Source of the DNA: Isurus oxyrinchus
Taxonomy: Eukaryota
Assembly (NCBI GenBank): GCA_026770705.1
Contig: JANJGN010000557.1
Coordinates: forward strand, 248,001 to 312,000
Length of the DNA stretch: 64,000 nucleotides
Reading direction: 5' to 3'
Part shown: in pieces, positions 1 to 48,300 of the stretch
How the letters are laid out: the number at the start of each line of letters is the position of its first letter
How positions within the stretch are numbered: position 1 is the stretch's first letter
Program-made: the position numbers and the translations under genes
Notes under the pieces: model-generated
What the model saw: only the letters and a program-made list of their open reading frames with translations
Databases searched by the model: none
Told to the model about the DNA's origin: nothing

Positions 1-173
1 ACTCTCTGCAGAGCACCTATCATCCCACAGATAATCAAATTAGTCTGAGAAAACATTGTCTAAAAGCAGTTCTGATCTCTCGAGAGCTGTCGGACAAGAG
101 GTGAGGTCTCATTAACTCCTTTCTCTTTCACAGCTTGAGAGTCAGAAGTGGATGGAATATCTGGGAGTGGACA

Positions 174-213
174 ATGATCGGGAAATATTACTTCCTCCTG
201 TCACTTCTCCAAG
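174..213 (+). CDS. Gene A signal peptide exon (MIGKYYFLLSLLQ)
   Basis: ATG at 174, hydrophobic stretch, CAAG|GTAATA phase-1 donor. Ends in SLLQ like the gene B and D leaders. Confidence 0.8.
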
Positions 214-3200: not shown

Positions 3201-6200
3201 CACAAATGCTAGTGGTTTCATTAAGACTATATCACACACTCCTGTTAGATCTTACATGGCATTCTGACACATAGCCTTTCATTCTCCCTGATAGATATAT
3301 ATTTCTCTCTTTGTAACATGAAAATTCTATTGTTCCAAATGTTTTTGAAACTGTATCTTCCTCATAACAAATTCTTTCGTGGTGCCCATATTGCCAGGAG
3401 CCTTTGAGAAAAATAAGCACATTCCTTAGTCTTGCTTATCTGGCTAGTTGTAAACAAACTAAGATTCCTTTGAAATCCAACAACCCCTTCATTGAAATAA
3501 AAATGCAAATTCTCTTCATACCTTCCATGCTAAGCAGCATCCATGTTTACTCAATAGCATGTCAAGCACCTAGCTCCTTTTGATCATTTTAAACTTCCAA
3601 TCTAATTAACTCCAAATGTACTTAAATCACATGCAGACCCATCATGCGTACCCCCATAAACCTACTTCACAATATACTATAAAATATTATGAAAATTATT
3701 ATACTTTCATCACAATAGGAACCACTGCCTTAGACACTGAGGATCTAGGACAGCTAGGCCAATTCATGATTCATGATGGTGATAATGGGGGAATTCTGAA
3801 GGCTCCTAATCCATTGTCCTAGTTTGTAAATCAGCAGTGAACTCACTTCAATTAGTGTGTCTTGTAGACACTGTGTTGGGTAGAAGACTGGCTTCACTAA
3901 ACAGGTTCCTGAGGGCCACGAGCCAATGTAGAATGAACTTGTCCACTCCTGTATCCAGGATTCTCTTCAATGTGTTGTGAAACATTGGGGCATTCATTGT
4001 GAGTCCAGACTGCAGCCACTGTGCCCCAGTGATGGAGGGGGTGGATTTTGAGTCTAGTGGATTGACAAAACATTCAGAGTTAAATATTGATATTTCTCCC
4101 CCTAGCTGGACTACCACAAGTGTGGAAAGGTGACACTCCACGAGAGGTGACAGCGCAGGAAGGTTCGTGTGTACAGATTCCGTGTCATTACAGCTACCCA
4201 TCATATTTAGTACCGAGATCACCTGTTGGAATCTGGTATATGAGAAGGAATTGGGAAACATGGTCTATAGCCTTTCACTCCAAGGATCACAGTCGCGAGT
4301 TACCACGGTTCCACAATCGGACCCGGCTTTCTGGAGACCTGAAAGATGGTGACTGTTCCCTGATTATAAACAACATCAGACGGGAAGATGCAGGATATTA
4401 TTTATTCAGAACAGATTTTGACAGCAGGAATAGATACAACGACCGTCCTGAAACCCAGCTTCATGTTTCTGGTAAGTGCTGTGTTATAATTACTCAACAA
4501 TTCACATCCAACACTCAATGGGAAATAATAGTGTTTGATTTGCTTGTTTTTTGGCCGTGTTAACCAGCGTCACTATTTTTAATGATTTGTCTATTTCTGC
4601 TCCCAGATCCATGAGCTTATTGTGTGTGATTGAATCCACATCATAGCTGTAACGTAAACCAAGCTGAGGGGTGATGACACCTCCCCCCTGAGTGAAGTGT
4701 CTCCTCCCCACTACACCTTCCACCCCTCACACTGTCTGTGTAATCTCCCGTCCCATCCCCAGCCTCTCTTTCCCCTCCAAAGTCCTGCAACGTGTTTCCA
4801 TCTCCCGAATCCGTTCCCATCTTTCCCGGAACTCCATGTTTGAATCCCTCCAATCAGGTTCCCACCCCAGCCACTGTGCTGAAACAGCTCTTATTTTTAT
4901 TGAGCAAATGCCAAGCCCCGATACCGAGCGAGAGCCTCCTCATTTGCTGAGTTTAAGGTGATGAGTCAGCCCCTTAGTCCGTAGACGGGATTCTCCTCGG
5001 TAATGTGCAGCCTTGTTTGTGTCTCTCCACAAGCGCATGAGGGGTTTGTACAGAGGCTGCAGCGCTGGAGGGGGTCTGCACAGGGGTCCTGGCCTGTCCT
5101 GAGCCAGTTTTAGCAAGGACAACTCTGGCCTTGGCAGCTGAAAGCCAGCCATTGGACAGACGGGGCCTGTCACAAGGAGCCTGTTAGTCACTCACCCCCG
5201 TGTCTCCTGTGCTCAGATCCAGACCATGTTGGCTGGTGGATCTGGCTCAGGAAGGGTCCTCCCCATGGGACCCCCAGAGGGAAGGTGGGTCGAGCGGGTC
5301 ACTCACTTGCATGTTTATTCTGCAGCTTTAATATTTTAAGAAGGTAAGAATGTAGGAACATAAGAAATAGGGACAGGAGCAGGCCATTCGGTCCCTCCAG
5401 CCTGCTCTCACTGATCTGGTTGCGGCCTTAACTCCATTTTCCTGCTTGTCCCCCAAACCCTTGACTCCCTTGTCGATCAAAAACCTGCCTCACTCAGCCT
5501 TGAGTCTATTCAATGGCCCAGTCTCCACTGCTCTCTGGGGAAGAGAATTCCACAGGCTAGCGCCCCTCTGAGAGAGGAAATTCCTCCTCATCTCAGTCTT
5601 AAATGGGAGAGTCCTCATTCCGAAACTGTGCTCCCTGGTTCTAGATTCCCCCACGAGGGGGAAACATCCTCCCAGCATCCACCCTGTCAAGCCCCCTCGG
5701 AATCGGATATGTTTCAATAAGGTCACCCCTCATTCTTCTAAACTCCAATGGATACAGCCCCAACCTGCTCAACATTTCCTCACAGGACAAACCCTTTAAT
5801 CCCAGGAATCAGCCCAGTGAAGCTTCTCTGAACTGCCTGTACACAATGATCCAGTTACAATCTCACTAACACCCTGTGCAGCTGTTGCAAGACTTCCCTC
5901 CTTTTATACTCCATCCCTTTGCAATAAAGGCCAACATTCCACTTGCCTTCCTCATTCCGTGGTGTTCCTGAATGCTGACTTTCTGTGATTCATGTACCAG
6001 GACACCCAGATCCCTCTGTACTGCATTCTGCAGCCTGTCTCCATTTAAATTATATCCTGTTTTTCTATTCATCCTGACAATATAATTTGTTGCCACTCTC
6101 CTCAGTATTGACCATCCCCCCAATTCAGCCTCATCTGTAAATATCGGGTTCAGTGGATCCACAAACCATTCAGAGTTAAATATTGAGATTTCTCTCCCCA

Positions 6201-9200
6201 GCTGAACCCTCGCAAGAGTGGAAAGGTGACAATCCATGAGAGGTGACAGTGCAGGAAGGTTCCTGTGTACAGATTCCATGTCATTACAGTTATCCATCGT
6301 GTCTGGAAAACCAACCGCGAGGTGGAGTCTGGTTTAATAATGAGGAATGGAGAACATCGTCTATAGCCTTTCACTCCAAGGATCACAGTCACGAGTTACC
6401 ACGGTTCCACCATCGGACCCGGCTGTCTGGAGACCTGAAAGATGGCGACTGTTCCCTGATTATAAACAACATCAGACGGGAAGATGCAGGACCTTATTTT
6501 TTCAGAATAGAATTTGACAATGGTCCGCGCTATAACTATTACCCTGTAACCCAGCTTCATGTTTCTGGTAAGTGCTGTGTTATAATTACTCAACAATTCA
6601 CATTCAGCACTCAATGGGAAATAACACAAACTGTGACATTTACGTATTAACACAAAACACAGCTTATTATAACACACTGTCTGATTCTCAATAACCTGGT
6701 GATCGCTTCCAATTCACTCCTAAAGCAACCTCTAATACTCACTTTAATATCAATGATTAAATGTATTGACTGTGTCCATCAATGTTATCAGGTTATCCAC
6801 TACTATCGATCTCTCTAATCCTGTCTCGAAGTCTGACTTAGCGACAGAAGAAAGATTCACATTTCTGTAGCACCTTTCACCACCTCAGCATGGACCAAAT
6901 CACTTCACAGCCAATGAGCTGATTCCTGAATTGTAGTTACTATTGTAATGTGGGAAACACAGCAACCAATTTGCACACAGCAAGCTCCCACAAATTGCAA
7001 AGTAAAAAATGGCCCAGATCGCTGAGTGAATGATGGGGTAGTGCACTCCAAACTCTGGTCTGCTCCACCACCCTCACCCACTATTATCAGTTCAAGTGTC
7101 TCGGAGTGAACGTGTATTAAGCTGAGAGACAGAAACACCAAAGTCTCAAAGCAGGAAATTCTCTCCTAATCATTGTAACCTCTCAGATCTGATATCATCC
7201 TTGTAAAAGTGCTTTTTCTTGTGGGACTGTGATTTCTATTTGAACTGATGCTTCACGTTATATTTCTCTAAAAGGATCCATTCTCTGTCTGTTAGATTTC
7301 ACAGATAAACCCACGATATTCCCTGCTGAAATTATTGCAGGAAAGCCTGTGGATGTAAGCTGCACCTTCAACACAACGTGCAATGGAACAGCAGCACCTG
7401 TCTTAACCTGGGACACTCCCACTGACGTACCTGGATCAGTCTCAAACACTGTAACTCAGCATGGTGTCACTCTGACCTATACTTCTGTTCTGACCCTGAT
7501 CCCATCACTCAAACACCACGGACACACTCTCAGCTGCAGAGTGAGATATCCATCTGTTTCATCGGAGCGGACCCTCGTACTAACTGTGCAAGGTAAGTAC
7601 AGACACCCTTCATTCTACATCAGCACTCCCTCAGCGCTGACCCTCTGACAGTGCAGCCCGATCTCAGTATCCACATTCTCAGACCTCTCAAAGTGCTTCA
7701 CAGTCGATAGAAGTTAACTGATCTTTATTTGATTGTTGCTGAATGAAGAGACAAGCTGTCTAAACTTTACATCTCACACACATTATTTTCCATGGCAACA
7801 CCTCCTCCAATCAGAGACCACTTGCTGATTAACCAGCACTCTCTTCCCTTTAAATATAAATTGTTGTTCACTTTCTGTTGGTAAACCTGCAATCTGCCTT
7901 GTTGAGTCCGGTCCTGACATCTGAATATCACAATGAACAGAACAAGTTCCAACAATGAGCTGTGGTTGGTGATTCCTCACGTTACATCCAGGGACACTGG
8001 AGACTATCAGTGTGCTCAGAGAATGAACATGGAGCAGTGGAGGGGTTCATAACCATCACTGTGGAACGTTAGTTAAGGCAAACTTCAACATCTCTCTCAG
8101 ATTGAAACACTACAAAAACACACATAAATATCCAGCCTTAAATAGACACCTGCAGACAAACAATCCCACATCTATGAGCACACACAAAGGCACACTCACA
8201 AACAAACACACTAGCACATACTCCCCTGTGGATTACCTGACCTCCCTCAGTGCTGCACCGGAGAGTTGACCTGGATTCTGGGATTTGTGTTCCCTTTCAT
8301 ATTTATGGAAGAATATGGAAATTGCAAAGTCTATTACAGACACTCAGATGCACAGAGTTACTCACAGATACTCTCTGCCTCTCCAACTCTCTATCCTACT
8401 TTAAGAACCTTCCTGAAATCTAACTCTTTGACCAGTCACCTGTCCCAATTCCTCCTTACGTGATTTTGTGTGAAATTTTGTTTGAGTATCTGAGAGTAAG
8501 AGGGAAGTGGAGAGGTTAAGGAAGGGAATTCCTGTTGCTGAAAAGCTTACATCAAGTTCTCAGCTTTCCAGTGCCCATTTTTCACATGATGTCCATGTTC
8601 ATAATGGGGATTGCCTATGTAAACGTCACGCTGTAGTTACACTCTCCCACCAGTGGTAGCACGGTAACACTTAACCCTTGCATCTCCAAGCTTTTCAAGC
8701 AATTTCACTTCCTAATTTGCTACTATTCACCTCAACCATTCCCTGTGGGAGCGAGTTCCACATTCTCCCCTCTCTCTGGGTAAAGATTGGAACTGTTTAT
8801 TAAGCGGGGTGTGTAAGTCCGTGGGGGAGTCCATCTCGATCCTGCCCGATTCGCACACGCGTCCGAGATGGATTTCCACCCTGCACTAAACGTTTCCAGA
8901 ATTTTCTACAGCACAATCCTGTACACAGCGATGGAGAGAAACATTGGACAGAGAGTCCAACAGCACAATGATCCATTCTCACCAATGTTCCACGCTAAGG
9001 GGAAAGTTCCGATTGTCCACTCTTAGAGTGTTTACAGTGAAAACATTCATTCCACATTGAATCCCAGTGGATGGGTCAATATTACAGCAAATGTTGCAGT
9101 GATATGAAGCTTGATTGTTCAGCCAGAGTGAGAGATTGAAAGCGGAGAGTCAGTGATGATTTCTTTCTGTGTGTTCTCTAGACAGTGGAGGAGAGATTCT

Positions 9201-9321
9201 GCACGTGATCCTGATCCTGGGAATACGAGCTGTGATATTCCTTGTGGCTGTGGTTATCACTATCGCTGGAGTCTGTGTCTGGGAGAGACAAACAGTGAAA
9301 GGAAGTCGACAGACTGTTTGA
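174..9321 (+). CDS. Gene A: activating-type Siglec-like receptor. In-frame model 174-213, 4106-4471, 7296-7592, 9182-9321 (280 aa; leader-V-C2-TM). May be partly pseudogenised.
   Basis: All four exons have GT/AG boundaries in phase 1 and sum to 843 nt with no stop. Siglec V-set motifs are present and the TM contains Arg. The model requires skipping two damaged exons (6202-6567 and ~7927-8067). Confidence 0.75.
1460..2784. mobile_element. Probable solo LTR-like element in gene A intron 1
   Basis: Block bounded by TGTT...AACA with no coding capacity. No clear target-site duplication. Confidence 0.4.
2786..3714. mobile_element. Solo LTR-like element (~0.9 kb family)
   Basis: TG...CA termini; clearly homologous to 31950-32859 and 60588-61500. 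Confidence 0.65.
4106..4471 (+). CDS. Gene A V-set exon V1 (intact)
   Basis: ccctAG acceptor and G|GTAAGT donor; 366 nt. SCVQIPC and DCSL give the Siglec cysteine pattern. DAGYYLFR keeps the essential Arg (AGA 4408-4410). Confidence 0.92.
5350..6070 (-). mobile_element. CR1-type LINE 3' fragment
   Basis: FKTEMRRNFLSQRGASLWNSLPQRAVE and QRDLGVLVHESQKVS motifs of the CR1 ORF2 C-terminus. Confidence 0.85.
6202..6567 (+). pseudogene. Gene A V-set exon V2 with an in-frame stop
   Basis: Same length and flanks as V1. TGA at 6237-6239 where V1 has CGA. DAGPYFFR keeps the Arg (6504-6506). Confidence 0.9.
7296..7592 (+). CDS. Gene A C2-set Ig exon
   Basis: gttAG acceptor and G|GTAAGT donor; 297 nt. 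DFTDKPTIFP..VSCTFNTTC..LTW..HHGHTLSCRV, with the extra Cys typical of Siglec domain 2. Confidence 0.9.
7927..8067 (+). pseudogene. Gene A broken second C2 exon (3' half only, frameshifted)
   Basis: ITMNRTSSNNELWLVIPHVTSRDTGDYQCA, then a 1-nt frameshift, then ENEHGAVEGFITITVE with a C|GTTAGT donor. The 5' half and acceptor are not recognisable. Confidence 0.8.
9182..9321 (+). CDS. Gene A transmembrane and short-tail terminal exon with intramembrane Arg
   Basis: ctctAG acceptor. SGGEILHVILILGIRAVIFLVAVVITIAGVCVWERQTVKGSRQTV*; Arg is CGA 9226-9228; no Tyr in the tail. Confidence 0.85.
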
Positions 9322-9704
9322 AGCTTTGTACAGCAACAATCTGGTCAGTCAGTGCGGACAAATAACGTGTGATGTTGTGTTAAGTTGTAATGAAACTGGT
9401 CAGTGTCCTGGTTAGAATCATCTCCGTATCATCGAGTCATTCCAGCAATGGAGGAGGACATTTGGCCCATTGAGTCTATGCTGTCTCTCTGTAAAGCAAT
9501 CCACTCAGTCCCATCCCCCGCTCTATCCCCGTATCCCTGCAAATTTATTTCCAATTTCCGTCCAATTTCCTTTTGAAATTGTTCATCGAATAGGAATGAA
9601 CAGAAATGTGACGTCGCTAAACTCTGTTCTCTGATTGGAATGAGCTTTCTGAATGCTGCACCTTTTTCATGCTGCGATAGATTGTAAGAAGCATTTGGCT
9701 TATG

Positions 9705-26301: not shown

Positions 26302-27457
26302 GTAATACACGTCACTGTCTTCAGCTCTGAGACTGTCAATCCTCACCGAACAATTCTTCCCTTCCAAGTCACCGATTATTTTAGCACGTCCCACGAATGT
26401 GGCCATCCCATAATTGGGATCTTTGGTGTATGTGATGGTATATTTCCATCTATACCAATATTTATACCAAGCTCCGTGCAGTGCTGTGTAAGAGTGGGAA
26501 GGAAAGTCAAAGCTACACGGAATAACCACACAAGAGCTGCTGATGGCCCTCCGAGGTAGCGCCTTCATAGACCATCCCTCTGACGTCACTCCTGAAAGGC
26601 AACAAGGGAAGAGACAGGACATCAAAAAGCAGAATATTACTTCAATGGAGAGAGGCAGCAGAATGCGGTACAGAGGGATCTGGGTGTCCTTGTACATGAA
26701 TCACAGAAAGTCAGCATTCAGGAACAGCACGGAATGAGGAAGGCAAGTGGAATGTTGGCCTTTATTGCAAAGGGATGGAGTATAAAAGGAGGGAAGTCTT
26801 GCTACAACTGTACAGGGCGTTGGTGAGATTGTATCAGGAGCAGTGTGTACTGTTCTGGTCTCCTTACTTAGGGAGGGATAGACTCTGCATTGGAGGCAGT
26901 TCAGAGGAGGTTCACTGGGCTGATTCCTGGGATGAAGGGGGTTTGTCCTGTGAGGAAATGTTGAGCAGGTTGGGCCCTGTATCCATTGGAGTTTAGAAGA
27001 ATGAGAGGTGATCTTATTGAAACATATAAGATTCTGAGGTGGTGGGGGGTTTGACAGGGTGGATGCTGATGGGATGTTACCCCTTGTGGGGGAATCCTGT
27101 GAAGCAATAAGGATGTTTTACTGCATTAAAGGTGCTGTATAAATGCACTGTCATTCCTATTGAAACAAGCTCTCTGATGCACAAACAGAAAATGCTGGAA
27201 AAACTCAGCAGGTCTGACAGCATCTGTGGAGAGAGAAACAGAGTTGGTGTTTCGAGTCCGTATGAGCCTTTTTCTTTTGCTATATTCTCTGACTCGCTAT
27301 TCACTCACTCTCTGTGTGATCACTAACCCTGTTCTCTAAAATTAAATGTTCACTTCCTCACTCCAGGAAAGAATCCAATTCCCTGAGTTCCGATCAGTAA
27401 TGAATTTGTACCTTGCAGCAAGCTGATGAAGATCAATATCAGACCGACCTCTCCCAT
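26302..27457 (-). pseudogene. Gene D: truncated paralogue of gene B (leader 27457-27412; V exon 26591-26302, cut after DVYY)
   Basis: Near-identical to the gene B leader and V exon. Homology stops at 26302, where Gypsy gag begins. No donor and no downstream exons. Confidence 0.92.
26630..27095 (+). mobile_element. CR1-type LINE fragment in the gene D leader-V intron (paralogous copy at 52340-52805)
   Basis: MEYKRREVLLQLYRALVRLYQEQCVLFWSPYL motif. Confidence 0.88.
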
Positions 27458-33149: not shown

Positions 33150-33398
33150 TCAGTTTTTCTGGAATCCAATCAGTGTGTATTCCGTGTCCTCGCTCCTGTG
33201 CACAGTCCTGTCACCGCTGGGCAGCTTTGAAAAGTTGATGTTGGCGTAGAGAAGGTCGTCGGGATTGTCGGGGTTCCCATGTCCAGCATCGCCTCCCACT
33301 GGACTTTCAGAGAGACCCCGGGGAGCTAGGGTCTGCCCCTCACTAGTTGTGTCTCTGGTTGTGTCCCGGGGCTCAGTAATCAGCATGTTCTGTTCATC
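33150..33398 (-). CDS. Gene B terminal exon with ITIM (LLYANI, 33254-33237) and ITSM-like motif (TEYTLI, 33185-33168)
   Basis: ctgtAG acceptor, phase 0, 249 nt to TGA. Typical Siglec two-tyrosine tail. Confidence 0.92.
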   Translation of the reverse strand, partial: DEQNMLITEPRDTTRDTTSEGQTLAPRGLSESPVGGDAGHGNPDNPDDLLYANINFSKLPSGDRTVHRSEDTEYTLIGFQKN

Positions 33399-36300
33399 CT
33401 ACAGAGAAATGGAAACAGAAGACATCCTCACATCATTTACTGGCACTGATAGGGTTAAATTATTGTGCAGCCTCGTTAGTGTCAGTCGTGGCTCAGTGGG
33501 TTTAACCCTTTTTTCGCTCTCTCTCTTTCCCTCTCTCTCTCTCTCTCTTGCTCACCTGAGTCTGGAAGTCCTAGTTACCATCTGAATCGTGAGATTTGTG
33601 CTCCATTCATCACAAACACAGGCATCCAAAACACCTCACGCCAATGAAGGAATTTTATTGAAGTGTGTCACTGCTATAATGTTGGATCTTATATGCCCAC
33701 CTGAGAGGGTAAACATGGTCAGCATTACACAACTGTTCTGCAAGATGGCACTTTGAACAATGCAACGTTCTCTCAGTGCTGGCTCCTGACAGTGCGGCAC
33801 TCCCTTGGAACTGCCCCTTCGAGAGGGCAGCATTCCTTCAATATGGACCCTCCAACAGTGCGGCGCTCCCTCAGTATTGAACATCCGACAGTGCAGCACT
33901 CCCTCAGTTCTGACCCTCCGACAGTGCAGCACCCCCTCAGTACTGACCCTCCGATAGTGCAGCAGTCTCTCAGTACTGACCCTCTGACAGTGCAGCACTC
34001 TCTCAGTACTGAGCCTTCTCCAATGCATCACTCTCTCATTACTGACCCTCCAATGGTGCAGCACACCCTCAGTACTGATTCTCCTTCTGTGTTGCTCTCC
34101 CCCAGTGCTGACCTCAGATGTATCGGCATTTTTGTGCTCAGGTTTCTGGAGAAAGAGAGACTGAGGGAGAGAGAGAGAGAGCAAGAGACAATGCTAAAAA
34201 CTGAGCCATTGCTGACTCCACAGTTAGAAGTCAGTGGGTAACCTGGCTGAGAATCTGGGACACGTGTTGTCTACACACTGAGATTGAAGCTTTGGAGTGA
34301 GTGTAAACAGCTCCTGTACCTGGTGCTTCACAGAGAGTGACCTGGGGGTCAATGCAATGTCTCTGGTCCCTGAAACTCTCTCCTCCATCGCTGTCTTTCT
34401 CCTGCAATAACACAATATCACACTGTGGTTATCATATAGCAGAGAGTCAGTGCAGCACAGACACAGAGCCCAGTGTAACCTTACACCAACGACTGGACTG
34501 TCTCTAGTTCCAATAAGGGATATCAGCGTGACATCACTATAATGGAAGTGTGTCATGTGATCCAATCTTAGTTTCACTTTTGCTTTGAGCAGAGCACACA
34601 CTCACAGCTCTGATGCCTCCAAGCTTTATCCGTATGTATAACTGTTCTTGATAAACGAGCCCATAACATTCTCACCCAATCCCTGTGTGCGATTGGTGCT
34701 TTGTGTCTTGTACAGTAAATAAGCCCAAGGTATAATATCATTATAATAACACGCCATATCTTTGACCCCCCCTCCACCCCTGCTCTTGCCCCCATAGCCC
34801 TTCAAATTTTGCCCCTTCAAGTATTTATCCAATTCCCCTTTTGAAAGTTCCTATTGAATCTGCTTCCACCTCCCTTTCAGGCAGCACCTTCCAGATCACA
34901 GCAACTGATTATTATTCATCTGGATAACGGGCAATGAAAAACACTCTCTGGATCATAAGGGACAAAGAGACCAGTTACGGAGAGGCATCTGGCGCTTAAC
35001 ACAAGGGAAACAATCACCGACTTCAGGAAAGAACATTGAAGCAAATGTTTATCCAGGAGTAATCGTGCAGAGTGAGGAATCTCTGGGTCTCGTGATTGTT
35101 TACCTGGATACAGGACAATGAAAGGTTCTCTCCGGATCAGAGTGGACACAGGGACCACTTACCGAGAGGGACCTGGTGCTGATCCCAAGGGAAACAATCA
35201 CCGACTTAAGGAAAGAACATTGAAGCAAATGTTTATATTAAAATCAAGTTAAATCTTCAGACTTACTTTCTCACACAGATGAAGATGAAGATTCCAGCCA
35301 GGAAAACACTCAACATGATCCCAGCCGTGAGCAATCCTACTGTCCATTTACTGCAGTCTCTACCTGTAAAAACAGCCATTAATTACTGCACTACAGGTTT
35401 AGAATGATGCTCCGATGTATCTCGAGAAGCGATACACTCACTCAATGTTTAAATACTCATTCTCGGGCAATGCTGACATTTATTGTCCATCCCTAGTTTC
35501 CCCTTGAGAAGGTGGTGGGGGGTCTTCCTCCTGAACCACTGGTTTGTCCCAAACTGGGAGACCAGTTCAGAGGGCAGGTCAGAGTTAATTACATTGGTGT
35601 TTGAGACTGGAGTCACATATACACCCAGACAGGTTTCCCTCCCTAAAAGGTTATTAGTGATCCACCTCCTAAATGTAATCTCTTTGTATGAATCAACTAA
35701 CCTCACTAAAATTATCGATTATCAGTTCATTATCACAATGCTGATTGTTGGAATCTTGCTGTGCACAAATCAGTAGCTGCGTTTCCAACAATACAACAGT
35801 GAGCTCACTTCGAAACTGCTTCATTGGCTGTTGAGAGTTTCAGGAATTTCTAAGCAATTTATGAATAAACTTCTTGCATTTCCATATAACCTATCTAATA
35901 TTTATATGTAATATTTATCGATGTAATCTTTGTAATATTTATATATAATATTTATCGATGTAATCTATGTAACATTTATAGATGTTACAATACAGCAGTT
36001 GGTAAAAGCTGTGGTTTAAAATCCCAGAGGGGAACTTTAAACAACTGTTAAAACCTATATTTCCCAGTGGAATGTTTGAGATGCAGCTCAAAATTCAGGA
36101 ATAAGACCACCGGTTCTCTAGAGGTTTTTATATCAAACTAAATTTGCCAACTTATAACAAGTTAAATATAGACACATGGCTAAAAGTTACAACGATCAAA
36201 ACTTTTTATCAAATTCCCAAACTAATCTCCTCTAAGACAACCCATAGACTTTAAGCAGACACCAGGCAAAGCATTTTAACCTCACAAATTCCAAATGAGG

Positions 36301-39300
36301 TTCCTTTCACTTTGGTTCCTTTGCAGACAGGTGTAGGCTTACAGCTGCTTTGATGTTACAAGCCTCTGACTTCCACAGACAAAACTCTCTCAGGTCTCTC
36401 AGCATCTCGGTTTGGACCAGTGTCCCGCATGTCACGGGTTGAGGGGGCAGCCATGCAGCGCACTCATCTCTGGCCGTCCAAGCGGTGACCAGCACTTCCC
36501 GGGAAGCATTGAGGGGCAGTCACACAGGGCCAGGAAAGGTGCTAAGTACAGCCACGATAACCAAGTCTCTCTCTCTCTCTTTTTCATGGTGCAGGAGGGC
36601 CATGTCGGGATGATGGACCCTGGTGACCTAGCTGTGTGCCTGATGGTCCACGGAGACTGTAGAAGACGGAGGAGAGAGTGACTGAGGCTCCTGGCCGCAC
36701 AAAGGCAGGAACAGCAACCTCATGAAGAAGGGGCAGTGGAGCTCTCGCATACGCTGTCGAGGAGCGACAGTGAGCCGTGGCTGGTCAACGCCTAGCGACA
36801 CCCAGAGTCTATAGACACCGCCTGTCATTCCTGCAGATGACTGAGAACCAGCGTCACTGATGTCTGTGCATGTCTAGGGACCTGTTGGCTCACATCTGCC
36901 ACTTACTGTACCAAGGGAACATAGAGGGCATCCACTGCCAGTGCCTGTGACAGTGACCGTGGTGCTCAATTTCTCTGCCAGTGTCTCCTTTCATGGCTCC
37001 ACAGGCGACCTCTGTGGGATATCACAATTCTCCACCCACAAATACATCCATGAGGTCCCGGATGCATCTTCTCCATGGCAACAACTTTGTGCATTTCGCC
37101 CGGGACTGGGACAGCCAGGATGCAAGGGCCTTTCGATTTGCCCTGATCTCGGGATTCCCATAAGTGCAGGGTACGATTGACTGCACTCATGTGGCGCTCA
37201 GGTCTCCATCGCTACACCCAGTGGACTTCATCAACCACAAGGGTTTCCACTCATTGAATATGCAGTTGGTATGTGACCAGCAGCAACACATCCTGTGGTA
37301 TGCACACGGTTTACAGGGAGTGCGCACATAGCCTACATCCTGAGTCACTCTCAGATCCCTGCAGTTTTCCAGGGTCCACAGAGGCTGCAGGGTTGGCTCC
37401 TTGGGGACAAGGACTACCCGCAGTGGTTGTGGCTGATGACACGCGTGCAGAGGCCTCAGACTGCAGCAGAGCGACGCTATAATGAGGCTCAGGCAGCAAC
37501 TCGTAACTTGGTAGCACAGACCCGGGATGCTGAAGATGTGGTTGCGGTGCCTGGACCAGTCTAGTGGAGCCCAGCAATACAGTCCGCAGAGGGTATCGCA
37601 CATCGTCATCGTCTGCTGCGCCCTTTACAACCAGGCGCTGCAACTGGGAGAGGAGCTGGCTGAGGAGGAGATGGAGGAGCTGGAGGTCTCCTCTGATGAG
37701 GAGGACATCAATGGGGATGAGAGATGGGGTGTAGGTAGAGTGAGATTGAGCTGCCCAGCATCCCTCTCACCTGAACACTGTAGGAGGCCAACTATGACAT
37801 TAGAGATGGGGTTAAACCCGTGTAGCAGTACGTGAGCAACGTCCTGGACCAAGGTCTCCATGGCGGCCGTCATCCTGCCAGTGTTGACCTCAGTGCGTTG
37901 CCATGCTGGCACTATCACCTCAACCTGAAGGCAGACGGACTCCTCCATCATGCCTTGCAATCTGAGGAGTGCAGCGGACATCCCTTCCTGATGTTCCCCA
38001 GCTTGCCTTTGCAGCTCCAGCAACTGTGACATTACTGAGTCAGAAGCTCATCATCCGACTCGGACTCAGCAACGTTCTGGCCTCCAGCAGTCCTCCGAGT
38101 GCCGGGGACCTGGTAGGTCCCTGCCTCAGCCTGCTGTGAATCAAACAGTGCGATGTGCTCACCAGAGGCTACTCTAAAGCTAGGTCCCACCGAGGTGTGT
38201 GTCTCTGCGCTGATGGAGGGTGAGGATGAGCGCTGTGAGGGGAGTTCAGGGAGGGTGCCTTCAGATTCCTCTTCGGAGGTTTCTTCGGAGCTTGCTTGGA
38301 GGTTCTGGGTCGTGGACTCTGTCTGCTGCTTCCCAGATGTGTCTGTGAAAGCATTGGGAGCTAATTAGTGCATGGCAGTGGCCTGTGAAAGAGGACACAT
38401 CACTCACAGCATGGTTGTTTGATGGATGTTGCACTTCTGGATCCTCACTTGGGAAAGCAGCGCTGAACTCACTGTCAGCACAGGACCGATCCCGGTCATT
38501 GCCGGCCAGCTGGATGACTCTGTTTTCCAATTCTGTCAGAGCTTTGATCTCCGACATCTCTCCACCTGTCTGTGACCTTCCCCTCCTGTTGTGAGCCAGT
38601 TTGTCCTGCATGGATAGAGATGGGGAGAGTGTATCAGGATGCCTGCCAGGCCAGATGATAAGTATGCCTGACCTGTGTGGGTGGTGAGTGGTCCTACGGA
38701 TGGGATGTGGACAATGACGGTGTGAGTGAGAGAGTGAATGGTGATGTCTCTTGCGCTGGCAGTGAGTGAGGGCCCTGTGGGTGTGTGATGTGTTTGTGAG
38801 TGTGTGAGTTAGGAGTGATGAAAAGGGTGACTTACGCTGGTGGAACGGAGGAGATCATTCATCCTTTTCCGGCACTGAGTATTGGTGTGAAAGGAGACAT
38901 TCTGTCAAAGCTTTTCATCTTTCACTCATCAGGACAGAATTGCAAGAATACCAAATCTCAAAGGGAACAACAATACTGCATGAGAAGAATGTGCTGATTG
39001 GCTGGCAAGCAGATAATTGTGGACAAATTGTGGCCCAAGTGTCAAATGTCCACTTGCCAACCAATTCAATTAGAATCTGGAATTGAAAATCTAACTTTGA
39101 CCATGGAAACATTGCCGATTGTCGCTAAAACCCCATCTGGGTCACTAATGTCCTTTAGGGGGGGAAATCTGCCATCCTTACCTGGTCTGGTGTACATGTG
39201 ACTCCAGACCCACAGCAAAGAGGTTGATTCCTCAAAACCCTCTGAAATGGACAGCAAGCTACTCTGTTCCAGGGTAATTTGGGATGGGCAATAAATGTTG

Positions 39301-42300
39301 GTCTCGCCAGTGAGACCTTCATCCCATGAACAAATAAAAAAATTACTCACATTCTGTGGGAATTCTAATGGGCAGAGACTTGGAACTGCCCAGGATACTT
39401 GTTGCTTCACAGTAGTAGGAGATTTCCTCATCGACTCCATCAGGAACCATAATAGTTTGACCAGTGAGTGTCAGATTAATGACCTTTCCTTGGGAGATCT
39501 TAAACCAGGTGAAATTGTGGACTGCTGGATTCCCGTCACTGGAGCAACTGAGAGAAATCATCTTTCCTTTTTCCCATGTCATCCTGACAGACGTATTGCG
39601 AGGAGAATCTTTCAAATACAAAATTATCAATACATTAACCAATGAGCTAAAGTCAGGAGTGTGATGGAACACTCTCCAGTTGCCGGGATGAGTGCAGCTC
39701 CAACAACACTCATGAAGCTCGACACCATCCAGGACAAAGCAGCCCACTTGATTGGCATCCCACCCACCATCTTCAACATTCACTCCCTCCACCTTGAATG
39801 CACAGTAGCAGCAGTGTGTACCATCTACAAGATGCACTGCAACAGCTCACCAAGGCTCCTTGAAAAGCACCTTCCAAACCTATCACCTCTAACATCTAGA
39901 AGGAAAAGGGCATCTGTTCATGGGAACACAACCACCTGCAAGTTCCCCTCCAATCCACACACCATCCTGAGTTGGAAATCTATCGTCATTTCCTTCACTG
40001 TCACTGGGTCATAATCCTGGAACTCCCTGCCTAACATTGCTGTGGGTGTACCTACAGCACATGGAGTGATTAGGGATGGGCAATAAATGTTGCCCATATC
40101 AGCAAATGAATTTAATATGGGCAAACTCATGTGGTTTAAAATCTAGAATTGAATAGTCTCTTTATATAATTATGGACTGGATACAGATCCAACACTAGCA
40201 CATGTACAGACTGCACTGTATTCCTCACCTGCAGATAATGTTACACAGAATTACAAGTAGTCTACAGCTGCGCATTCGGCCCATCTTTTCTATGTCAGAA
40301 GCCAAGACTGTACACAGTACTCCTGATGCAGTCTCACCAAGAGCCTATAGAGTTGTAACATGCATCCCTACTTTTACACTCAAGCTTGCTTACAATAAAC
40401 ACCAACGTTCCATTTGCCTTCCTAACACCTTGCTGCACCTGCATACTAACTTTCTATGATTCATGTACCAGGAATGATGTGTTAGTCATTGGAGAGAGTA
40501 TTCAGGATTCTGATTTACAGAAGACGATGTTTATAGTCACTTGGCAGCACAGAACCTGAGCATTGGTGTGAAAGGAGACATTCTGTCAAAGCTTTTCATC
40601 TTTCACTCATCAGAATTGCAAGAATACCAAATCTGAAAGGGAACAACAATTGATACTGCATGAGGAGAATGTGCTGATTAGCTGGCAAGCAGATAATTGT
40701 GGACAAATTGTGGATAAAGTGTCAAATGCCCACTTGCCAACCAATTCAATGAGAATCTGGAATTGACATTCTAACGATGACCATGAAAACATTACCGATT
40801 GTCGTTAAAAACCTATCTGGGTCACTAATGTTCTTTAGGGAGGGAAATTTGCTGTCCTTACCTGGTCTGGCCTACATGCAAGTCCAGACCCACAGAGATG
40901 TGGTTGACTCTTCAATACACTCTGTAATGGCCCAGCAAGCCATTCAGTTCCAGGGTAATTTGGGATGGGCAATAAATGTTGGTCTAGCCAGTGACACCTC
41001 CATCCCATGAACAAATGAAGAAAAGTACTCACATTCAGAGGGAATTCTAATGGGCAGAGACTGGGAACTGCCCAGGATGCTTGTTGCTTCACAGTAGTAG
41101 GAGATTTGCTCTTCAAATCCATAAGGAACTGTAATAGTTTGACCAGCGAGTGCCAGATTCGTCACTTTTCTTTGTGAGATTTTAAACCAGGTGAAATTGT
41201 GGACTACTGCATTCCCTTCACTGGAACAACTTAGAGAAATCATCTTTCCTTTTTCCAGTGTCATCCTGACAGACGTGTTGTGAGGAGAATCTTTCAAATA
41301 CAAAATTATCAACACATTAATAACTGAGTTAAAGTCAGGAGTGTGATGGAACACTCTCCAGTTGCCTGGATGAGTGCGGCTCCAGCAACACTCAGGAAGC
41401 TCGACACCATCCAGGACAAACAGCCCACTTGAACGTCATCCCACCCACAATCTACAACATTCACTCTCTCCACCATGAATGTCCAGTGTGTACCATCTAC
41501 AAGATGCACTGCAACAGCTCCCCAAGGCTCCTTGAACAGCACCTTCCATTCCTTAATACCAGAAGAACAAGGGCAGCAGAAAAATGGGAACAATGCCACC
41601 TGCAAGTTCCCCGCCAAGCCTCTCACCATCCTGAATTGGAAATGTATCGGCCGTTCCTTCACTATCGCTGGGTCAAAATCCTGGAACCCCTTCCCTAACA
41701 GCACTGTGGGTATACGTACAGCACATGGACTGCAGCAGGTCAGGACAAGGGGTAATTAAGGATAGGCAATAAATGTTACCCATATCAGCAGCTCCCACAT
41801 CCTGTGAATGAATTAAATATGGGCAAACTCATGAGGAGTAAAATCGAGATTTGAATAGTCTCTTTATATAATCATGGACTGGAAACAGCTCCAACACTAG
41901 CACAAGTAGAAACTGCACTGTATTCCTCACCAGCAGATAACATTACCCAGTATTACAGGTAGCCTTCAGCTGCACATTTGGCCCATCTTTTCTATGTCAG
42001 AATCAAAGACTGTACACAGTACTCGTGATGCAGACTCACCAAGAGCCTGTACAGTTGTAACATGCGTCCCTACTTTTACACGCGAGCTCCCTTACAATAA
42101 ACAGCAACGTTCCATTTGCCTTCCTAACCACTTGCTGCAGCTGCATACTAACTTTCTATGATTCATGTACCAGGAATGATGTGTTAGTCATTGGAGAGAG
42201 TATTCAGGATTCTGATTTACAGAAGACGATGTTTACAATCACTTGGCAGCACAGAACCTGAGCATTGGTGAGAAAGGAGACATTCTGTCAAAGCTTTTCA

Positions 42301-45300
42301 TCTTTCACTCATCAGGACAGAATTGCCAGAATACCAAATCTCAAAGGAAACAACAATTGATACTGCATGAGAAGAGGGTGCTGATTAGCTGGCAACAGAT
42401 AATTGTGGACCAATTGTGGCCAAAGTGGTCAAATGTCCACTTGCCAACCAATTCAATTAGAATCTGGAATTGAAAGTCTAATGATGACCATGAAAACAGT
42501 GCTGATTGTCGTTAAAACCCCATCTGGGTCACTAATGTCCTTTAGGGAGGGAAATCTGCTGTCCTTACCTGCTCTGGCGTACCTGTGACTCCAGCAATGT
42601 GGTTGATTCTTCAATACCCTCTGAAATGGCCCACCAAGCCACTCTGTTCCAGGGTAACTTGGGATGGGCAATAAATGTTGGTCTAGTCAGTGACACCTCC
42701 ATCCCATGAACGAATAAAAAAATTACTCACATTCTGTGGGAGTTCTAATGGGCAGAGACTGGGAACTGCCCAGGATACTTGTTGCTTCACAGTAGTAGGA
42801 GATTTCCTCATCGAATCCAGAAGGAACTGTAATAGTTTGACCAGCGAGCACCAAATTCATCACTTTTCCTTGGGAGCTCTTAAACCAGGTGAAATTGTGG
42901 ATTGGTGGATTCCCGTCACTGGAACAACTTAGAGAAATCATCTTTCCTTTTTCCAGTGTCATCCTGACAGACGTGTTATGAGGAGAATCTTTCAAATCCA
43001 AAATTATCAACACATTAACCACTGAGCTAAAGTCAGGAGTGTGATGGAACACTCTCCAGTTGCCGGGATGAGTGCGGCTCCAGCAACACTCAGGAAGCTC
43101 GACACCATCCAGGACAAAGCATCCCACTTGAACGGTACCCCACCCACCATAGTCAACATTCACTCCCTGGTGCACAGTGGCAGCAGTGTGTACCATCTAC
43201 AAGATGCACTGCAACAGCTCACCAAGGCTCCTTGAACAGCACCTTCCAAACCCTAACATCAAGTAGGACAAGGGGAGCAGATAGGTAGGAACAATGCCAC
43301 CTGCAAGATCCCCTGCAAGCCACTCACCATCCTGACTTGGAAATCTATCGCCATTCCTTCACTGTCACTGGGTCAAAATCCTGGAACTCCCTCCCTAACA
43401 TTGCTGTGGGTGTACCTACAGCACATGGACTGCAGCAGTTGAATACAGTGGCTCATGGGGTAATTAAGGATGGCTAATAAATGTTGCCCATATCATCAAA
43501 TGAATTAAATATGGGCAAACTCATGAGGTTTAAAATCTAGATTTGAATAGTCTCTTTATATAATCATGGACTGGATACAGCTCCAACACTAGCACAAGTA
43601 CAAACTGCACTGTATTCCTCACCAGCAGATAATGTTACACAGTATTACAGGTAGTCTACAACTGCGCATTCAGCCCATCTTTTCTATGTCAGAAGCCAAG
43701 ACTATACACAGTACTCCTGATGCAGTCTCAAAAAGAACCTGTACACCTCCACCCTACATCCCTAATACTTTTACTTAATCTCCCTTGCAATAAACACCAA
43801 CATTCCATTTGCCTTCCTAAACACTTGCTGCACCTGCATACGAACCTTCTATGTTTCATGTACCAGAAATTATATATTAGTCAATTGGGAGAGCATTCAG
43901 GAGAATTTACAGAAGAAGATATTTATAGTCACTTGGCGGTAAAAAATTTGAGCGTTGGAGAGAAAGGAGACATTCTGTCAAAGCTTTTCATTTTTCACTC
44001 ATCAGGACAGAATTGCAAGAATACCAAATCTCAAAGGGAACAACAATCGAGATTGCATGAGGAGGTGGTGCTGATTGCCTGGAAAGCAGATAATTGAGGG
44101 CAAATTGTGGATAAAGTGTCAAATGTCCACTTGCCAACCAATTCAATTAGGACCTGGAATTGAATTTCTAACGATGACCATGAAAACATTACCGATTGTC
44201 ATTAAAAACCCATCAGGGTCACTAATGTCCTTTAGGGAGGGAAATCTGCCGTCCTTACCTGGTCTGGCCTGCATGCAGGTCCAGACCCACAGAGATGTGG
44301 TTGACTCTTCAATGACCTCTGAAATGGCCCAGCAAGCCATTCAGTTCCAGGGTAATTTGGGATGGGCAATAAATGTTGGTCTAGCCAGTGAGATCTTCAT
44401 CCCATGAACGAATAAAAAAAGTACTCACATTCAGTGGGAATTCTAATGGGCAGAGACTGGGAACTGCCCAGGATACTTGTTGCTTCACAGTAGTAGGAGA
44501 TTTCCTCATCGAATCCATAAGGAACTGTAATAGTTTGACCAGTGAGCACCAGATTCGTCACCTTTCCTTGGGAGATCTTAAACCAGGTGAAATTGTGGAC
44601 TGCTGGATTCCCGTCACTGGAACAACTTAGAGAAATCACCTTTCCTTTTTCCCGTGTCAGCCTGACAGACGTGTTGTGAGGAGAATCTTTCAAATACAAA
44701 ATTATCAACACATTAACCACTGAGCTAAAGTCAGGAGTGTGATGGAACACTCTCCATTTGCCGGGATGAGTGCAGCTCCAGCAACGCTCATGAAGCTGGA
44801 TACCATCCAGGACAAAGCAGCCCACTTGAACGGCATCCCACCCACCATCTTCAACATTCACTCCCTCCACCATGAATGCACAGTGGTAGCAGTGTGTACC
44901 GTCTACAAGATGCAATGTAACAGCACACCTAGGCTCCTTGAACAGCACCTTCCAATCCCTAACACCTAGAAGTACAAGGGCAGCAGGAAAATGGGAACAA
45001 CGCCACCTGCAAGTTCCCCACCAAGCCTCTCACCATCTTGAATTGGAAATATATCGGCCGTTCCCTCACTATCGCTGGGTCAAAATCCTGGAACTCCCTC
45101 CCTAACAGCACTGTGGATATACGTACAGCATGTGGACTGCAGCAGGTCAGGACAAGGGGTAATTAGGGATGGGCAATTAATGTCGCCCATATCAGCAGCT
45201 CCCACATCCTGTGAATGAACTAAATATGGGCAAACTCATGAGGTTTAAAGTCTAGATTTGAATAGTCTCTTTATATAATCATGGACTGGATACAGCTCCA

Positions 45301-48300
45301 ACACTAGCACATGTACAAACTGCACTGTATTCATCACCAGCAGGTAATGTTACACAGAATTACAGGTAGTCTACAGCTGCACATTCGGCACATCTTTTCT
45401 ATGTCAGAAGCCAAGACTGTACACAGTACTCGTGATGCAGACTCACCAAGAGCCTGTACAGTTGTAACATGCGTCCCTACTTTTACACTCAAGCTCCCTT
45501 ACAATAAACAGCAACGTTCCATTTGCCTTCCTAACCACTTGCTGCACCTGCATACTAACTTTCTCTGATTTGTGTACCAGGAATGATGTGTTAGTCATTG
45601 GAGAGAGTATTCAGGATTCTGATTTACAGAAGACGATGTTTACAGTCACTTGGCAGCACAGAACCTGAGCATTGGTGTGAAAGGAGACATTCTATCAAAG
45701 CTCTTCAAATATTCTTTCCTTTTTCCAGTGTCATCCTGACAGACATGTTGTGAGGAGATTCTTTCAAATCCAAAATTATCAACACATTAACCACTGAGCT
45801 AAAGTCAGGAGTGTGATGGAACTCTCTCCAGTTGCTGGGATGAGTGCAGCTCCAACAACACTCAGGAAGCTCGACACCATCCAGGACAAAGCATCCCACT
45901 TGACTGGCATCCCACCCACCATCTTCATCATTCACTCCCTCCACCACCGACGCACAGTGGCATCAGTGTGTACCATCTACAAGATGCACTGCAACAGCTC
46001 ACCAAGGCTCCTTAAGCAGCACCTTCCAAACCTGTGACCTCTAACATCTAGAAGGACAAGGGCAGCAGACTCATGGGAACACCACCACCTGCAAGTTCTC
46101 CTCCAAGCCACACACCACCTTGACTTGGAAATCTATTGCCGTTCCTTCACTGTCACTGGGACAAAATCCTGGAACTCCCTGCCTAACATTGCTGTGGGTG
46201 TACCTACAGCACATGTAGTGAAGCGGTTCAAGACAATGTCTCAAGGGGTAATTAGGGATGGGCAATAAATGTTGCCCATATCAGCAAATGAATTAAATAT
46301 GGGCAAACGCATGTGGTTTAAACTCTAGATTTGAATAGTCTCTTTATATAATCATGGACTGGATACAGCTCCAACACTAGCACACGTACAAACTGCACTG
46401 TATTACCCACCAGCAGATAATGTTACACAGAATTAAAGATAGTCTACAGCTGCGCATTCGGCCCATCTTTTCTATGTCAGAAGCCAGGACTGTACACAGT
46501 ACTCGTGATGCAGTCTCACCAATAGCCTGTACAGTTGTAACATGCGTCTCTACTTTTACACTCAAGCTCCCTTGCAATAAACACCAATGTTCCATTTGCC
46601 TTCCTAACCACATGCTGCACCTGCATTCTAACTTTCTCTGATTTGTGTACCAGGAATGATATGTTAGTCATTTACGAGTGTATTCAGGATTTTGATTTAC
46701 AGAAGACGATGTTTACAGTCACTTGGCAGGACAGAACCTGAGCATTGGTGAAAAAGGAGACATTCTGTCAAAGCTTTTCATCTTTCACTCATCAGGACAG
46801 AATTGCAAGATTACCAAATCTCAAAGGGATAACAAATTATACTGCATGAGAAGAGGGTGCTGATTGGCTGGCAACAGATAATTGTGGACAAATTGTGGCC
46901 ATAGTGTTCAAATGTCCACTTTCCAACCAATTCAATGAGAATCTGTAATTGAAAGTCTATTGTTGACCATGAAAACATTGCCAATTGTCGTTAAAACCCC
47001 ATCTGGTTCACTAATGTCCTTTAGGGAGGTAAATCTGCTGTCCTTACCTGGTCTGGCCTTACATGTGACTCCAGACCCACAGCAACGTGGTTGACTCCTC
47101 AATATCCTCTGAAATGGCCCACTAAGCCTCTCTGTTCCAGTATAATTTGGGATGGGCAATAAATGTTGGTCTAGCCAGTGACACCTTCATCGCATGTATG
47201 AATAAAAAAAGTACTCACATTCAGTGGGAATTTTAATGGGCAGAGACTGGGAACTGCCCAGGATACTTGTTGCTTCACAGTAGTAGGAGATTTCCTCATC
47301 GAATCCATAAGGAACTGTAATAGTTTGACCAGTGAGCACCAGATTTGTCACCTTGCCTTGGGGGATCTTAAACCAGGTGAAATTGTGGACTGCTGGATTC
47401 CCATCACTGGAACAACTTAGAGAAATCATCTTTCCTTTTTCCCGTGTCAGCCTGACAGACGTGTTGTGAGGAGAATCTTTCAAATACAAAATTATCAACA
47501 CATTAAACACTGAGCTAAAGTCAGGAGTGTGATGGAATTCTCTCCAGTTGCCAGGATGAGTGCTGCTCCAACACACCCAAGAAACTCGACACCATCCAGG
47601 ACAAAGCCCAATTGATCGGCATCCCAACCACCATCTTCAACATTCACTCCCTCCACCAATGACGCACATTATCAGCAATGTGTACCATCTACAAGATGCA
47701 CTGCAGCAACTCACCAAGGCTCTTAAGACAGCACCTTCCAACGCATGACCTCTGAAACCTATAAGGACAAGGGCAGCAGATACATGGGAACATCACCACC
47801 TGTAAGTTCCCCTCCAAGCCACACACCATCCTGACTTGGAACGATTTCACTGTTACTTCATTGTTTCTGGGTCAAAATCCTAGAACACTCTCCAGGAAGC
47901 ACTTTTGGTGCACCTTCACTACATGCTGTGCAGCAGTCCCAGAAGTCAGCTCACCACCACCTTCCAAAGGGACAATTAGGAATGGGTGATAAATGCTGGC
48001 CCCAGCCAGTAATGGCCACATCCCAGAAAAGAATGAAAAAAAGAGTGAACTGATGAGGTGTAACATCCAGATTGGGATAGGGTCTGTTTTGAATCATGGA
48101 CTGGATACAGCTCCAACACTAGCACCTGTACAAACTGCACTGTGTTCCTCACCAGCAGATGATGTCACACAGAATTACAGCGAGTCTACAAGTGGCTATC
48201 TCACCCCATCCCCATAACCTTTTCTTACTTTCTCCCTCATGTGTTTATCCCTTAAATACATCGATACTATTCACCTTTACCACTCCCTGTGGGAGCGACT

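What the first reader, a model, noticed from the sequence alone, without database searches (positions are those of the whole stretch)
4050..6625. Two tandem V exons with conserved framework and divergent ligand loops share one leader and one C2/TM
Seen: V1 and V2 are both 366 nt, phase 1-1, with shared flanks. Long framework stretches are almost identical (SIAFHSKDHS..TRLSGDLKDGDCSLIINNIRREDAG). The B-C and C-C' regions (YLVPRSPVGIWYMRRNWETW vs CLENQPRGGVWFNNEEWRTS) and the F-G region (YLFRTDFDSRNRYNDRPE vs YFFRIEFDNGPRYNYYPV) differ heavily. Known: these loops set Siglec glycan specificity. Inference: diversifying selection, plus either alternative V-cassette splicing or replacement of the binding domain through unequal crossover.
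Basis: partly seen in the sequence, partly recalled or inferred. Interest (0 to 1): 0.7.

Follow-up and report, generated by a model that had tools for sequence, protein, structure and literature searches.

The report
Multi-headed shark Siglec, damaged copy

Summary
Both 366-nt V exons, their shared flanks, the single leader and the C2/TM are real. V2, however, has an in-frame TGA at codon 12 (6237-6239). The unit belongs to a shark Siglec-like paired-receptor cluster (at least 378 C2 and 674 V exons). Units are leader-V(1 to 10)-C2-tail; this one has an Arg-TM tail. V1 and V2 are two old classes. A B-C-loop cysteine, at nearly the position of the C2 inter-domain cysteine, is in 32 of 33 internal V and 0 of 22 first V of multi-V units (other elasmobranchs 32 of 40 against 0 of 23), though it changes only 3 times on the tree. 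RNA contigs of one run join V to V. Tandem inclusion is therefore likelier than cassette choice; skipped forms are not excluded. Loop dN/dS for the pair is about 1; family site models suggest positive selection mainly in first-V loops, confounded by recombination. This copy is probably a recent null, or is rescued by skipping V2. The scan noted the cysteine before on other DNA (e1-9575185). No paper on this cluster was found in nine searches.

The parts
134..213 (+). Leader exon (ATG at 174, 13 codons, phase-1 donor). A 5' exon, apparently untranslated, lies about 280-360 nt before the window start
   Evidence: leader-to-V joints in RNA contigs X3 and X4
4106..4471 (+). V1: first-class (distal) Siglec V-set exon, open; Cys21 (4168), Cys26, Cys83, F-strand Arg101 (4408); Tyr at the B-C-loop site
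4056..4528 (+). First copy of the duplicated block (V exon plus short flanks)
   Evidence: 85% identical to 6152-6624
6152..6624 (+). Second copy of the duplicated block
6202..6567 (+). V2: internal-class V-set exon, splice sites intact, Arg101 kept, interrupted by a stop
6237..6239 (+). In-frame TGA at V2 codon 12 (CGA in close paralogues; CpG site where 16 V exons genome-wide have the same stop)
   Evidence: not confirmed by reads
6300..6302 (+). B-C-loop Cys33 of V2, the mark of internal V; inferred disulfide partner of V1 Cys21
7296..7592 (+). First C2-set exon, open, with Cys22, Cys28 (7379, B-C loop) and Cys80
   Evidence: V-to-C2 GT..AG joint in RNA contigs
7918..8066 (+). 5'-truncated, frameshifted remnant of a further Ig exon, passed over by the C2-to-TM joint
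9182..9343 (+). TM exon with intramembrane Arg (9226) and short tail without tyrosine, stop at 9319, 22 nt before the donor; activating type by inference
   Evidence: C2-to-TM joint in X1-X3

Best explanation
The unit is a shark Siglec-like receptor gene whose two V exons are likely spliced together (leader-V1-V2-C2-TM), with V1 as the variable outer head and V2 as a conserved inner extender probably disulfide-locked to V1, and this copy carries a stop codon in V2 that would likely disable that form. Shown: exon layout, stop, position-specific cysteine, 1-10 V per unit, three tail types, V-to-V joints in one RNA run. Inferred: each V's spare Cys21 pairs with the B-C-loop cysteine of the next domain (V2 Cys33 or C2 Cys28), so every cysteine is paired only if the chain starts at a first-class V; unequal crossover changes V number and so reach and valency; conversion homogenises frameworks; the Arg-TM couples to an ITAM adaptor. 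For this copy: null by nonsense-mediated decay about 65%, rescued by in-frame V2 skipping about 25%, assembly error or minor allele about 10% (judgement).
For: Cys in 32 of 33 internal V, 0 of 22 first V of multi-V units and 3 of 22 parsed single V, also where V1 and V2 are otherwise nearly identical (U07, U14, U47). Database models of other elasmobranchs: 32 of 40 internal, 0 of 23 first, 1 of 63 parsed single-V proteins. C2 keeps both Cys22 and Cys28 in 35 of 35 full-length exons; Cys28 aligns with the second Cys of MAG domain 2. A Siglec V-C2 inter-domain disulfide is described for Siglec-6 (PMC10122656, passages). Arrays of near-identical internal V (4, 5, 7, 10 V) add length, not variety; loop entropy is 1.18 bits in first V and 0.32 in internal V. 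All V are intact in 19 of 22 multi-V units. V-end to V-start joints in 2 contigs of run X1. An intact white-shark model of the same type exists (P0107). 8 of 13 close units are intact in V1, V2, C2 and TM.
Against: The counts are not independent: the Cys changes only 3 times on the tree and only 2 independent pairs exist (not significant). Exceptions: an internal V with His in U28 and its copies L040, L044; an intact single V with Cys (U23); rays 2 of 6 internal V; white-shark models P0104, P0106, P0108, P0117 begin with a Cys-type V and isoform P0115 skips V1. V-to-V joints come from one run of one sample, 11 informative letters each, and from paralogues rather than this copy; joint tables were cut (80 and 15 rows not shown). 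No disulfide, ligand or adaptor was measured. The TGA was not checked against reads.
Confidence: 0.72

Rival explanations
1. Alternative V-cassette splicing is the main use: each transcript takes one V (leader-V1-C2 or leader-V2-C2) to vary specificity.
For: All V exons are phase 1-1, so any skip keeps frame. White-shark isoform X4 (P0115) skips V1, and catshark isoforms differ in V content (P0003, P0135, P0008). Internal V keep the sialic-acid Arg (30 of 31 intact). L032 and L033 have a V2 with both a stop and a lost donor in otherwise intact units.
Against: Internal V in arrays are nearly identical, so choice adds no variety. A leader-V2-C2 form would expose an unpaired Cys at the tip (inference). 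V-to-V joints exist. Database isoforms in multi-copy families can arise from mis-mapped reads (own knowledge).
Confidence: 0.13
2. V1 is a replacement head brought in by unequal crossover, and V2 is a decaying leftover that is skipped; the Cys is a hitch-hiking CpG mutation.
For: V2 is broken in 4 of 13 close units against V1 in 2 of 13. Codons at the site (CGT, CAT, TGT) fit CpG decay of an Arg codon, so Cys is easily gained. Recombination is significant. U28 looks like a V1 placed in front of a His-type V.
Against: 31 of 33 internal V are intact; internal omega is 0.62-0.65 and loops are conserved. Internal V of different shark lineages share more loop identity (0.61) than first and internal V of one lineage (0.51). 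A neutral Cys would not stay confined to internal positions across eight other shark genera.
Confidence: 0.1
3. The V exons are co-included, but the extra cysteine makes inter-chain dimers or serves another purpose, not a V-V staple.
For: The spacing is +7 from the B-strand Cys against +6 in C2. Some internal V lack it.
Against: Its absence from first V, which are the most exposed, is best explained by need for an upstream partner; the upstream V keeps its spare Cys in 20 of 20 intact first V.
Confidence: 0.05

Closest known systems
[quoted passage not shown]
   Same: Two Siglec V-set domains before the first C2; Arg loss in an outer V and null alleles also occur.
   Different: One gene with two V there; here 1-10 V per unit across hundreds of units, all three tail types, and a position-specific B-C-loop Cys. 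Whether Siglec-12 V2 has such a Cys was not tested (no Siglec-12 among listed hits).
Paired Siglecs 5/14 and 11/16 (PMC6288428, PMC13358205, passages)
   Same: Near-identical ectodomains joined to inhibitory (ITIM-type) or charged-TM short tails; concerted evolution by gene conversion; frequent null activating alleles.
   Different: Scale (at least 213 Arg-TM exons), variable V and C numbers, a third tyrosine-tail type; adaptor unknown.
Sialoadhesin, MAG, CD33, Siglec-10, Siglec-5 structures
   Same: Best sequence hits of V1 (E 3e-15 to 1e-11); the last V plus C2 of a white-shark V-V-C2 model matches MAG at Z 19.4, rmsd 3.9 over 212 residues and CD33 at Z 17.7, rmsd 4.8 over 207.
   Different: These lengthen with C2 repeats and have a single V; no listed Siglec structure covers the V-V pair.

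Membership tests
Siglec (I-type lectin) | N-terminal V-set domain followed by C2-set domain(s), TM and tail | tested here: met
   Pfam V-set, Ig_CD22, C2-set_2 above cut-off; exon layout
Siglec (I-type lectin) | Intra-sheet B-E disulfide and no F-strand Cys in the V domain; spare Cys before the B-strand Cys | tested here: met
   Cys21, 26, 83 only in V1, aligned with sialoadhesin and MAG; the pattern as a hallmark is recalled
Siglec (I-type lectin) | Partner Cys in the B-C loop of the first C2 domain | tested here: met
   Cys28 in 35 of 35 full-length C2 exons, aligned with MAG; the bond itself not measured
Siglec (I-type lectin) | Essential F-strand arginine and A/G-strand aromatics | tested here: met
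   Arg101 in V1 and V2, Trp6 and Tyr110 aligned with sialoadhesin Trp residues; Arg kept in 14 of 20 intact first V and 30 of 31 internal V
Siglec (I-type lectin) | Sialic-acid-dependent binding | not testable with these tools
   needs glycan array with Arg mutant
Activating paired receptor (Siglec-14/16 type) | Basic residue in TM, short tail without ITIM, inhibitory counterparts with near-identical ectodomain | tested here: met
   Arg at TM-exon codon 15; of 42 units 21 Arg-TM, 10 ITIM-type, 6 other tyrosine tail, 5 none found
Activating paired receptor (Siglec-14/16 type) | Association with DAP12 or FcR-gamma | not testable with these tools
   no adaptor tested
Siglec-12 orthologue / mammalian CD33-related clade | Orthology by tree and synteny | not tested
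   all 102 and 120 listed hits were elasmobranch; no mammalian sequence was in hand; database names are automatic
Mutually exclusive cassette system (Dscam or clustered protocadherin type) | Alternative exons never joined to each other, or each with its own promoter and leader | tested here: not met
   V-to-V joints in X1; no leader between V1 and V2; limited to one run
Functional gene (this copy) | Open frame through all exons | tested here: not met
   TGA at 6237-6239; open only if V2 is skipped

The most novel reading that the evidence does not exclude
Sharks carry a Siglec-like paired-receptor cluster of several hundred genes built as modular accordions: a hypervariable, positively selected outer head sits on 0-9 disulfide-stapled inner V domains that keep the sialic-acid arginine, giving tunable reach and multivalent self-glycan sensing, combined with activating or inhibitory tails; skipping inner V exons would tune length further and rescue copies like this one.
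Probability: 0.4. Interest if true: 0.75.

Novelty: new variant of a known kind. Interest (0 to 1): 0.52.

Why it matters
Siglecs are described as one V head on a C2 stalk, with Siglec-12 the odd two-V case. A family with 1-10 V domains, a cysteine that marks inner position across sharks, and hundreds of activating and inhibitory members would show another way to build reach and valency and a large germline innate repertoire in cartilaginous fish. It makes a clear test: does the inner V replace C2 as disulfide partner, and which V binds sialic acid? The rule also flags a probably fused database model (P0001, alternating pattern). This particular copy matters little, being damaged.

Tried and rejected
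Complex prediction of V1 with V2 of P0012 as two chains gave no answer (score 0.01, alignment not used). The AlphaFold model of P0012 (pLDDT 74, pTM 0.49) gave no coordinates, so the Cys-Cys distance was not measured; structural rows mostly cover V2-C2 only. RNA contigs could not resolve V1-to-C2 or leader-to-V2 joints: none in the rows shown, tables cut, V ends shared; position 6237 was not among the rows shown. No DNA run was laid. Synonymous contrast loops against framework is weak: 3 of 14 against 7 of 72 same-residue codons, fourfold sites 0.135 against 0.087 with 3.5 loop sites per pair, so framework homogenisation rests on PHI and cross-species patterns. The Fisher p of 4e-17 is set aside as non-independent. 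The zero count of leaders between V exons follows from how units were split and is not used. First codon-model scripts failed to parse omega, fixed. Separate leader and misassembly rejected. Siglec-12 was not retrieved.
Full report
OBSERVATION. V1 (4106-4471) and V2 (6202-6567) are 366-nt phase 1-1 exons with intact splice sites inside a duplicated block of 85% identity. Loop regions share 14 of 39 residues and framework 72 of 77; clustering of differences beats all 10,000 shuffles. The only leader is at 134-213; a profile of 43 leader exons and a mechanical scan find none between the V exons. C2 is 7296-7592 and the TM exon 9182-9343. Of 20 loci fetched around the best V1 matches, 12 have the same V1-V2-C2-Arg-TM layout and all 12 read CGA there. 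The same stop occurs in 16 V exons genome-wide, in several V types (12 examined), so it fits a recurrent CpG mutation. It was not checked against reads.

IDENTITY. V1 matches Pfam V-set and Ig_CD22 and has sialoadhesin, MAG and Siglec-5 as best solved relatives. All listed database relatives are elasmobranch; the nearest are white and basking shark. The TM carries an Arg and the tail is short and tyrosine-free, the pattern of activating paired receptors (PMC13358205, passages).

THE CLUSTER. Exact-pattern counts in G000 are 674 for a V framework motif, 378 for the C2 start, 213 for the Arg-TM and 262 for the Cys-loop motif (controls 0, 0, 0, 3). They are lower bounds on exons and include pseudogenes and possibly haplotype duplicates, but contig C52 alone holds at least 98 C2 and 64 Arg-TM matches. 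In 1.06 Mb mapped (of which 60 kb was chosen for holding an array) there are 49 units. Of the 42 with V and C2, V number is 1 in 20, 2 in 18, and 3, 4, 5 and 7 in one each. A further region, chosen through the Cys pattern, holds a 10-V gene with open frames in the matched stretches. Tails: 21 Arg-TM, 10 ITIM-type, 6 other tyrosine tail, 5 none found; 0-8 extra Ig exons (motif names recalled). C2 exons differ by only 1.9% on average.

TWO V CLASSES. A Cys seven residues after the B-strand Cys is in 32 of 33 internal V, 0 of 22 first V of multi-V units and 3 of 22 single V (one more unparsed, one short remnant dropped). In database models of other species it is in 32 of 40 internal V (sharks 30 of 34, rays 2 of 6), 0 of 23 first V and 1 of 63 single-V proteins; 6 and 6 domains were unparsed, and three isoform duplicates and one apparently fused model were left out. 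C2 has its second Cys at +6, kept in 35 of 35 and aligned with MAG; a V-C2 disulfide is described for Siglec-6 from a model and mutants (PMC10122656, passages). Inference: the internal V stands in for C2 as partner of the preceding V's spare Cys, which implies co-inclusion. Against: only 3 changes on the tree and 2 independent pairs; exceptions in U23, U28 and several white-shark models, one of which skips V1. First V are diverse in the loops (1.18 bits against 0.32) and lose the essential Arg more often (6 of 20 against 1 of 31).

RNA. Contigs of runs guessed to be RNA show GT..AG joints V-to-C2 (3 of 4 runs, 4 of 4, two studies) and C2-to-TM (3 of 4), leader-to-V (X3, X4), and two V-end to V-start joints, both in X1. 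X1, X2, X3 and X5 are one sample. The contigs come from the family, not provably from this copy. Skip joints were not among the rows shown, which proves nothing.

SELECTION AND CONVERSION. For the pair, loops give pN 0.41 and pS 0.42, framework 0.02 and 0.13: constraint is relaxed in loops but dN/dS is not above 1. Single-ratio omega is 1.08 for first-V loops and 0.65 for internal loops. My own M2a against M1a test (branch lengths scaled from one tree) gives p 5.5e-4 for first V (23% of sites, omega 2.7; 4 of 5 top sites in loops), p 0.007 for internal V (7% of sites) and p 0.45 for C2, a control with less power. PHI tests show recombination (p 0.0005 for all and internal, 0.008 for first), which inflates such tests. 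Across species, the loop tree follows class (9 changes against 14 for lineage) and the framework tree follows lineage (8 against 17; 76 rows, no shuffled control), as expected from old classes with homogenised frameworks. Direct synonymous support is weak.

MECHANISM. Main product of intact units: leader-V1-V2-C2-TM, likely stapled by inter-domain disulfides, with a variable head, conserved extenders and an adaptor-coupled TM. Unequal crossover varies V number. In this copy the stop lies upstream of further junctions and would trigger decay; skipping V2 would restore a canonical V1-C2 receptor. Of 13 close units, 8 are intact in V1, V2, C2 and TM, V2 is broken in 4 and V1 in 2 (one has both), which fits ordinary birth and death.

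KNOWN AND NEW. Two V domains are known from Siglec-12, and paired Siglecs with conversion from primates (PMC6288428, PMC12654080, PMC13358205; passages). Nine searches (listings only) found no paper on a shark Siglec cluster or multi-V Siglecs; the whale-shark paper mentions Siglecs once as a gnathostome novelty (PMC8455134, passages). Subscription papers and supplements were not seen, and automatic annotations already hold multi-V models. I noted the Cys rule, before the look-up showed that the scan had reported it on other DNA. Verdict: new variant of a known kind; the locus is a damaged copy and the family is the point of interest.

Noticed in passing
G000:C52:2280276-2299937 (L182-L183): Gene with ten tandem V exons at about 2.04-kb spacing; first lacks the loop Cys, nine have it; ITIM-type tail.
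   Followed up: partly
G000:C557:247643-247723 (just before the window) and about 500 nt upstream of most leaders: The apparent 5' untranslated exon is homologous to the first cytoplasmic exon of the tyrosine-tail receptors, suggesting exon co-option.
   Followed up: no
window 33153-52256, minus strand: A different MAG-like gene: V with Tyr at the essential-Arg position, C2, at least five repeated Ig exons at about 1.7-kb spacing, and the same ITIM-type TM and tail exons.
   Followed up: partly
window 26302-26547, minus strand: Truncated second copy of that V exon within a segment duplicated between about 26-33 kb and 52-62 kb.
   Followed up: no
L032:6395-6760 and L033:6394-6759: V2 has both a stop and a GT-to-AT donor change while V1, C2 and TM are intact: candidates for a return to single-V receptors.
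   Followed up: partly
window 152-154: Out-of-frame ATG 22 nt upstream of the leader ATG, present in many but not all leader exons.
   Followed up: no
units U13, U16, U18, U28, U04 on C52: The two-exon cytoplasmic module with tyrosine motifs is duplicated in tandem in several inhibitory-type units.
   Followed up: no
G000:C34:15129543-15189593 (L188-L194): Three more divergent single-V units on a 19.9-Mb contig, a possible anchor for placing the cluster.
   Followed up: no
P0001 (basking-shark model): Seven V domains with alternating absence and presence of the loop Cys, suggesting several V1-V2 units merged in one model.
   Followed up: no
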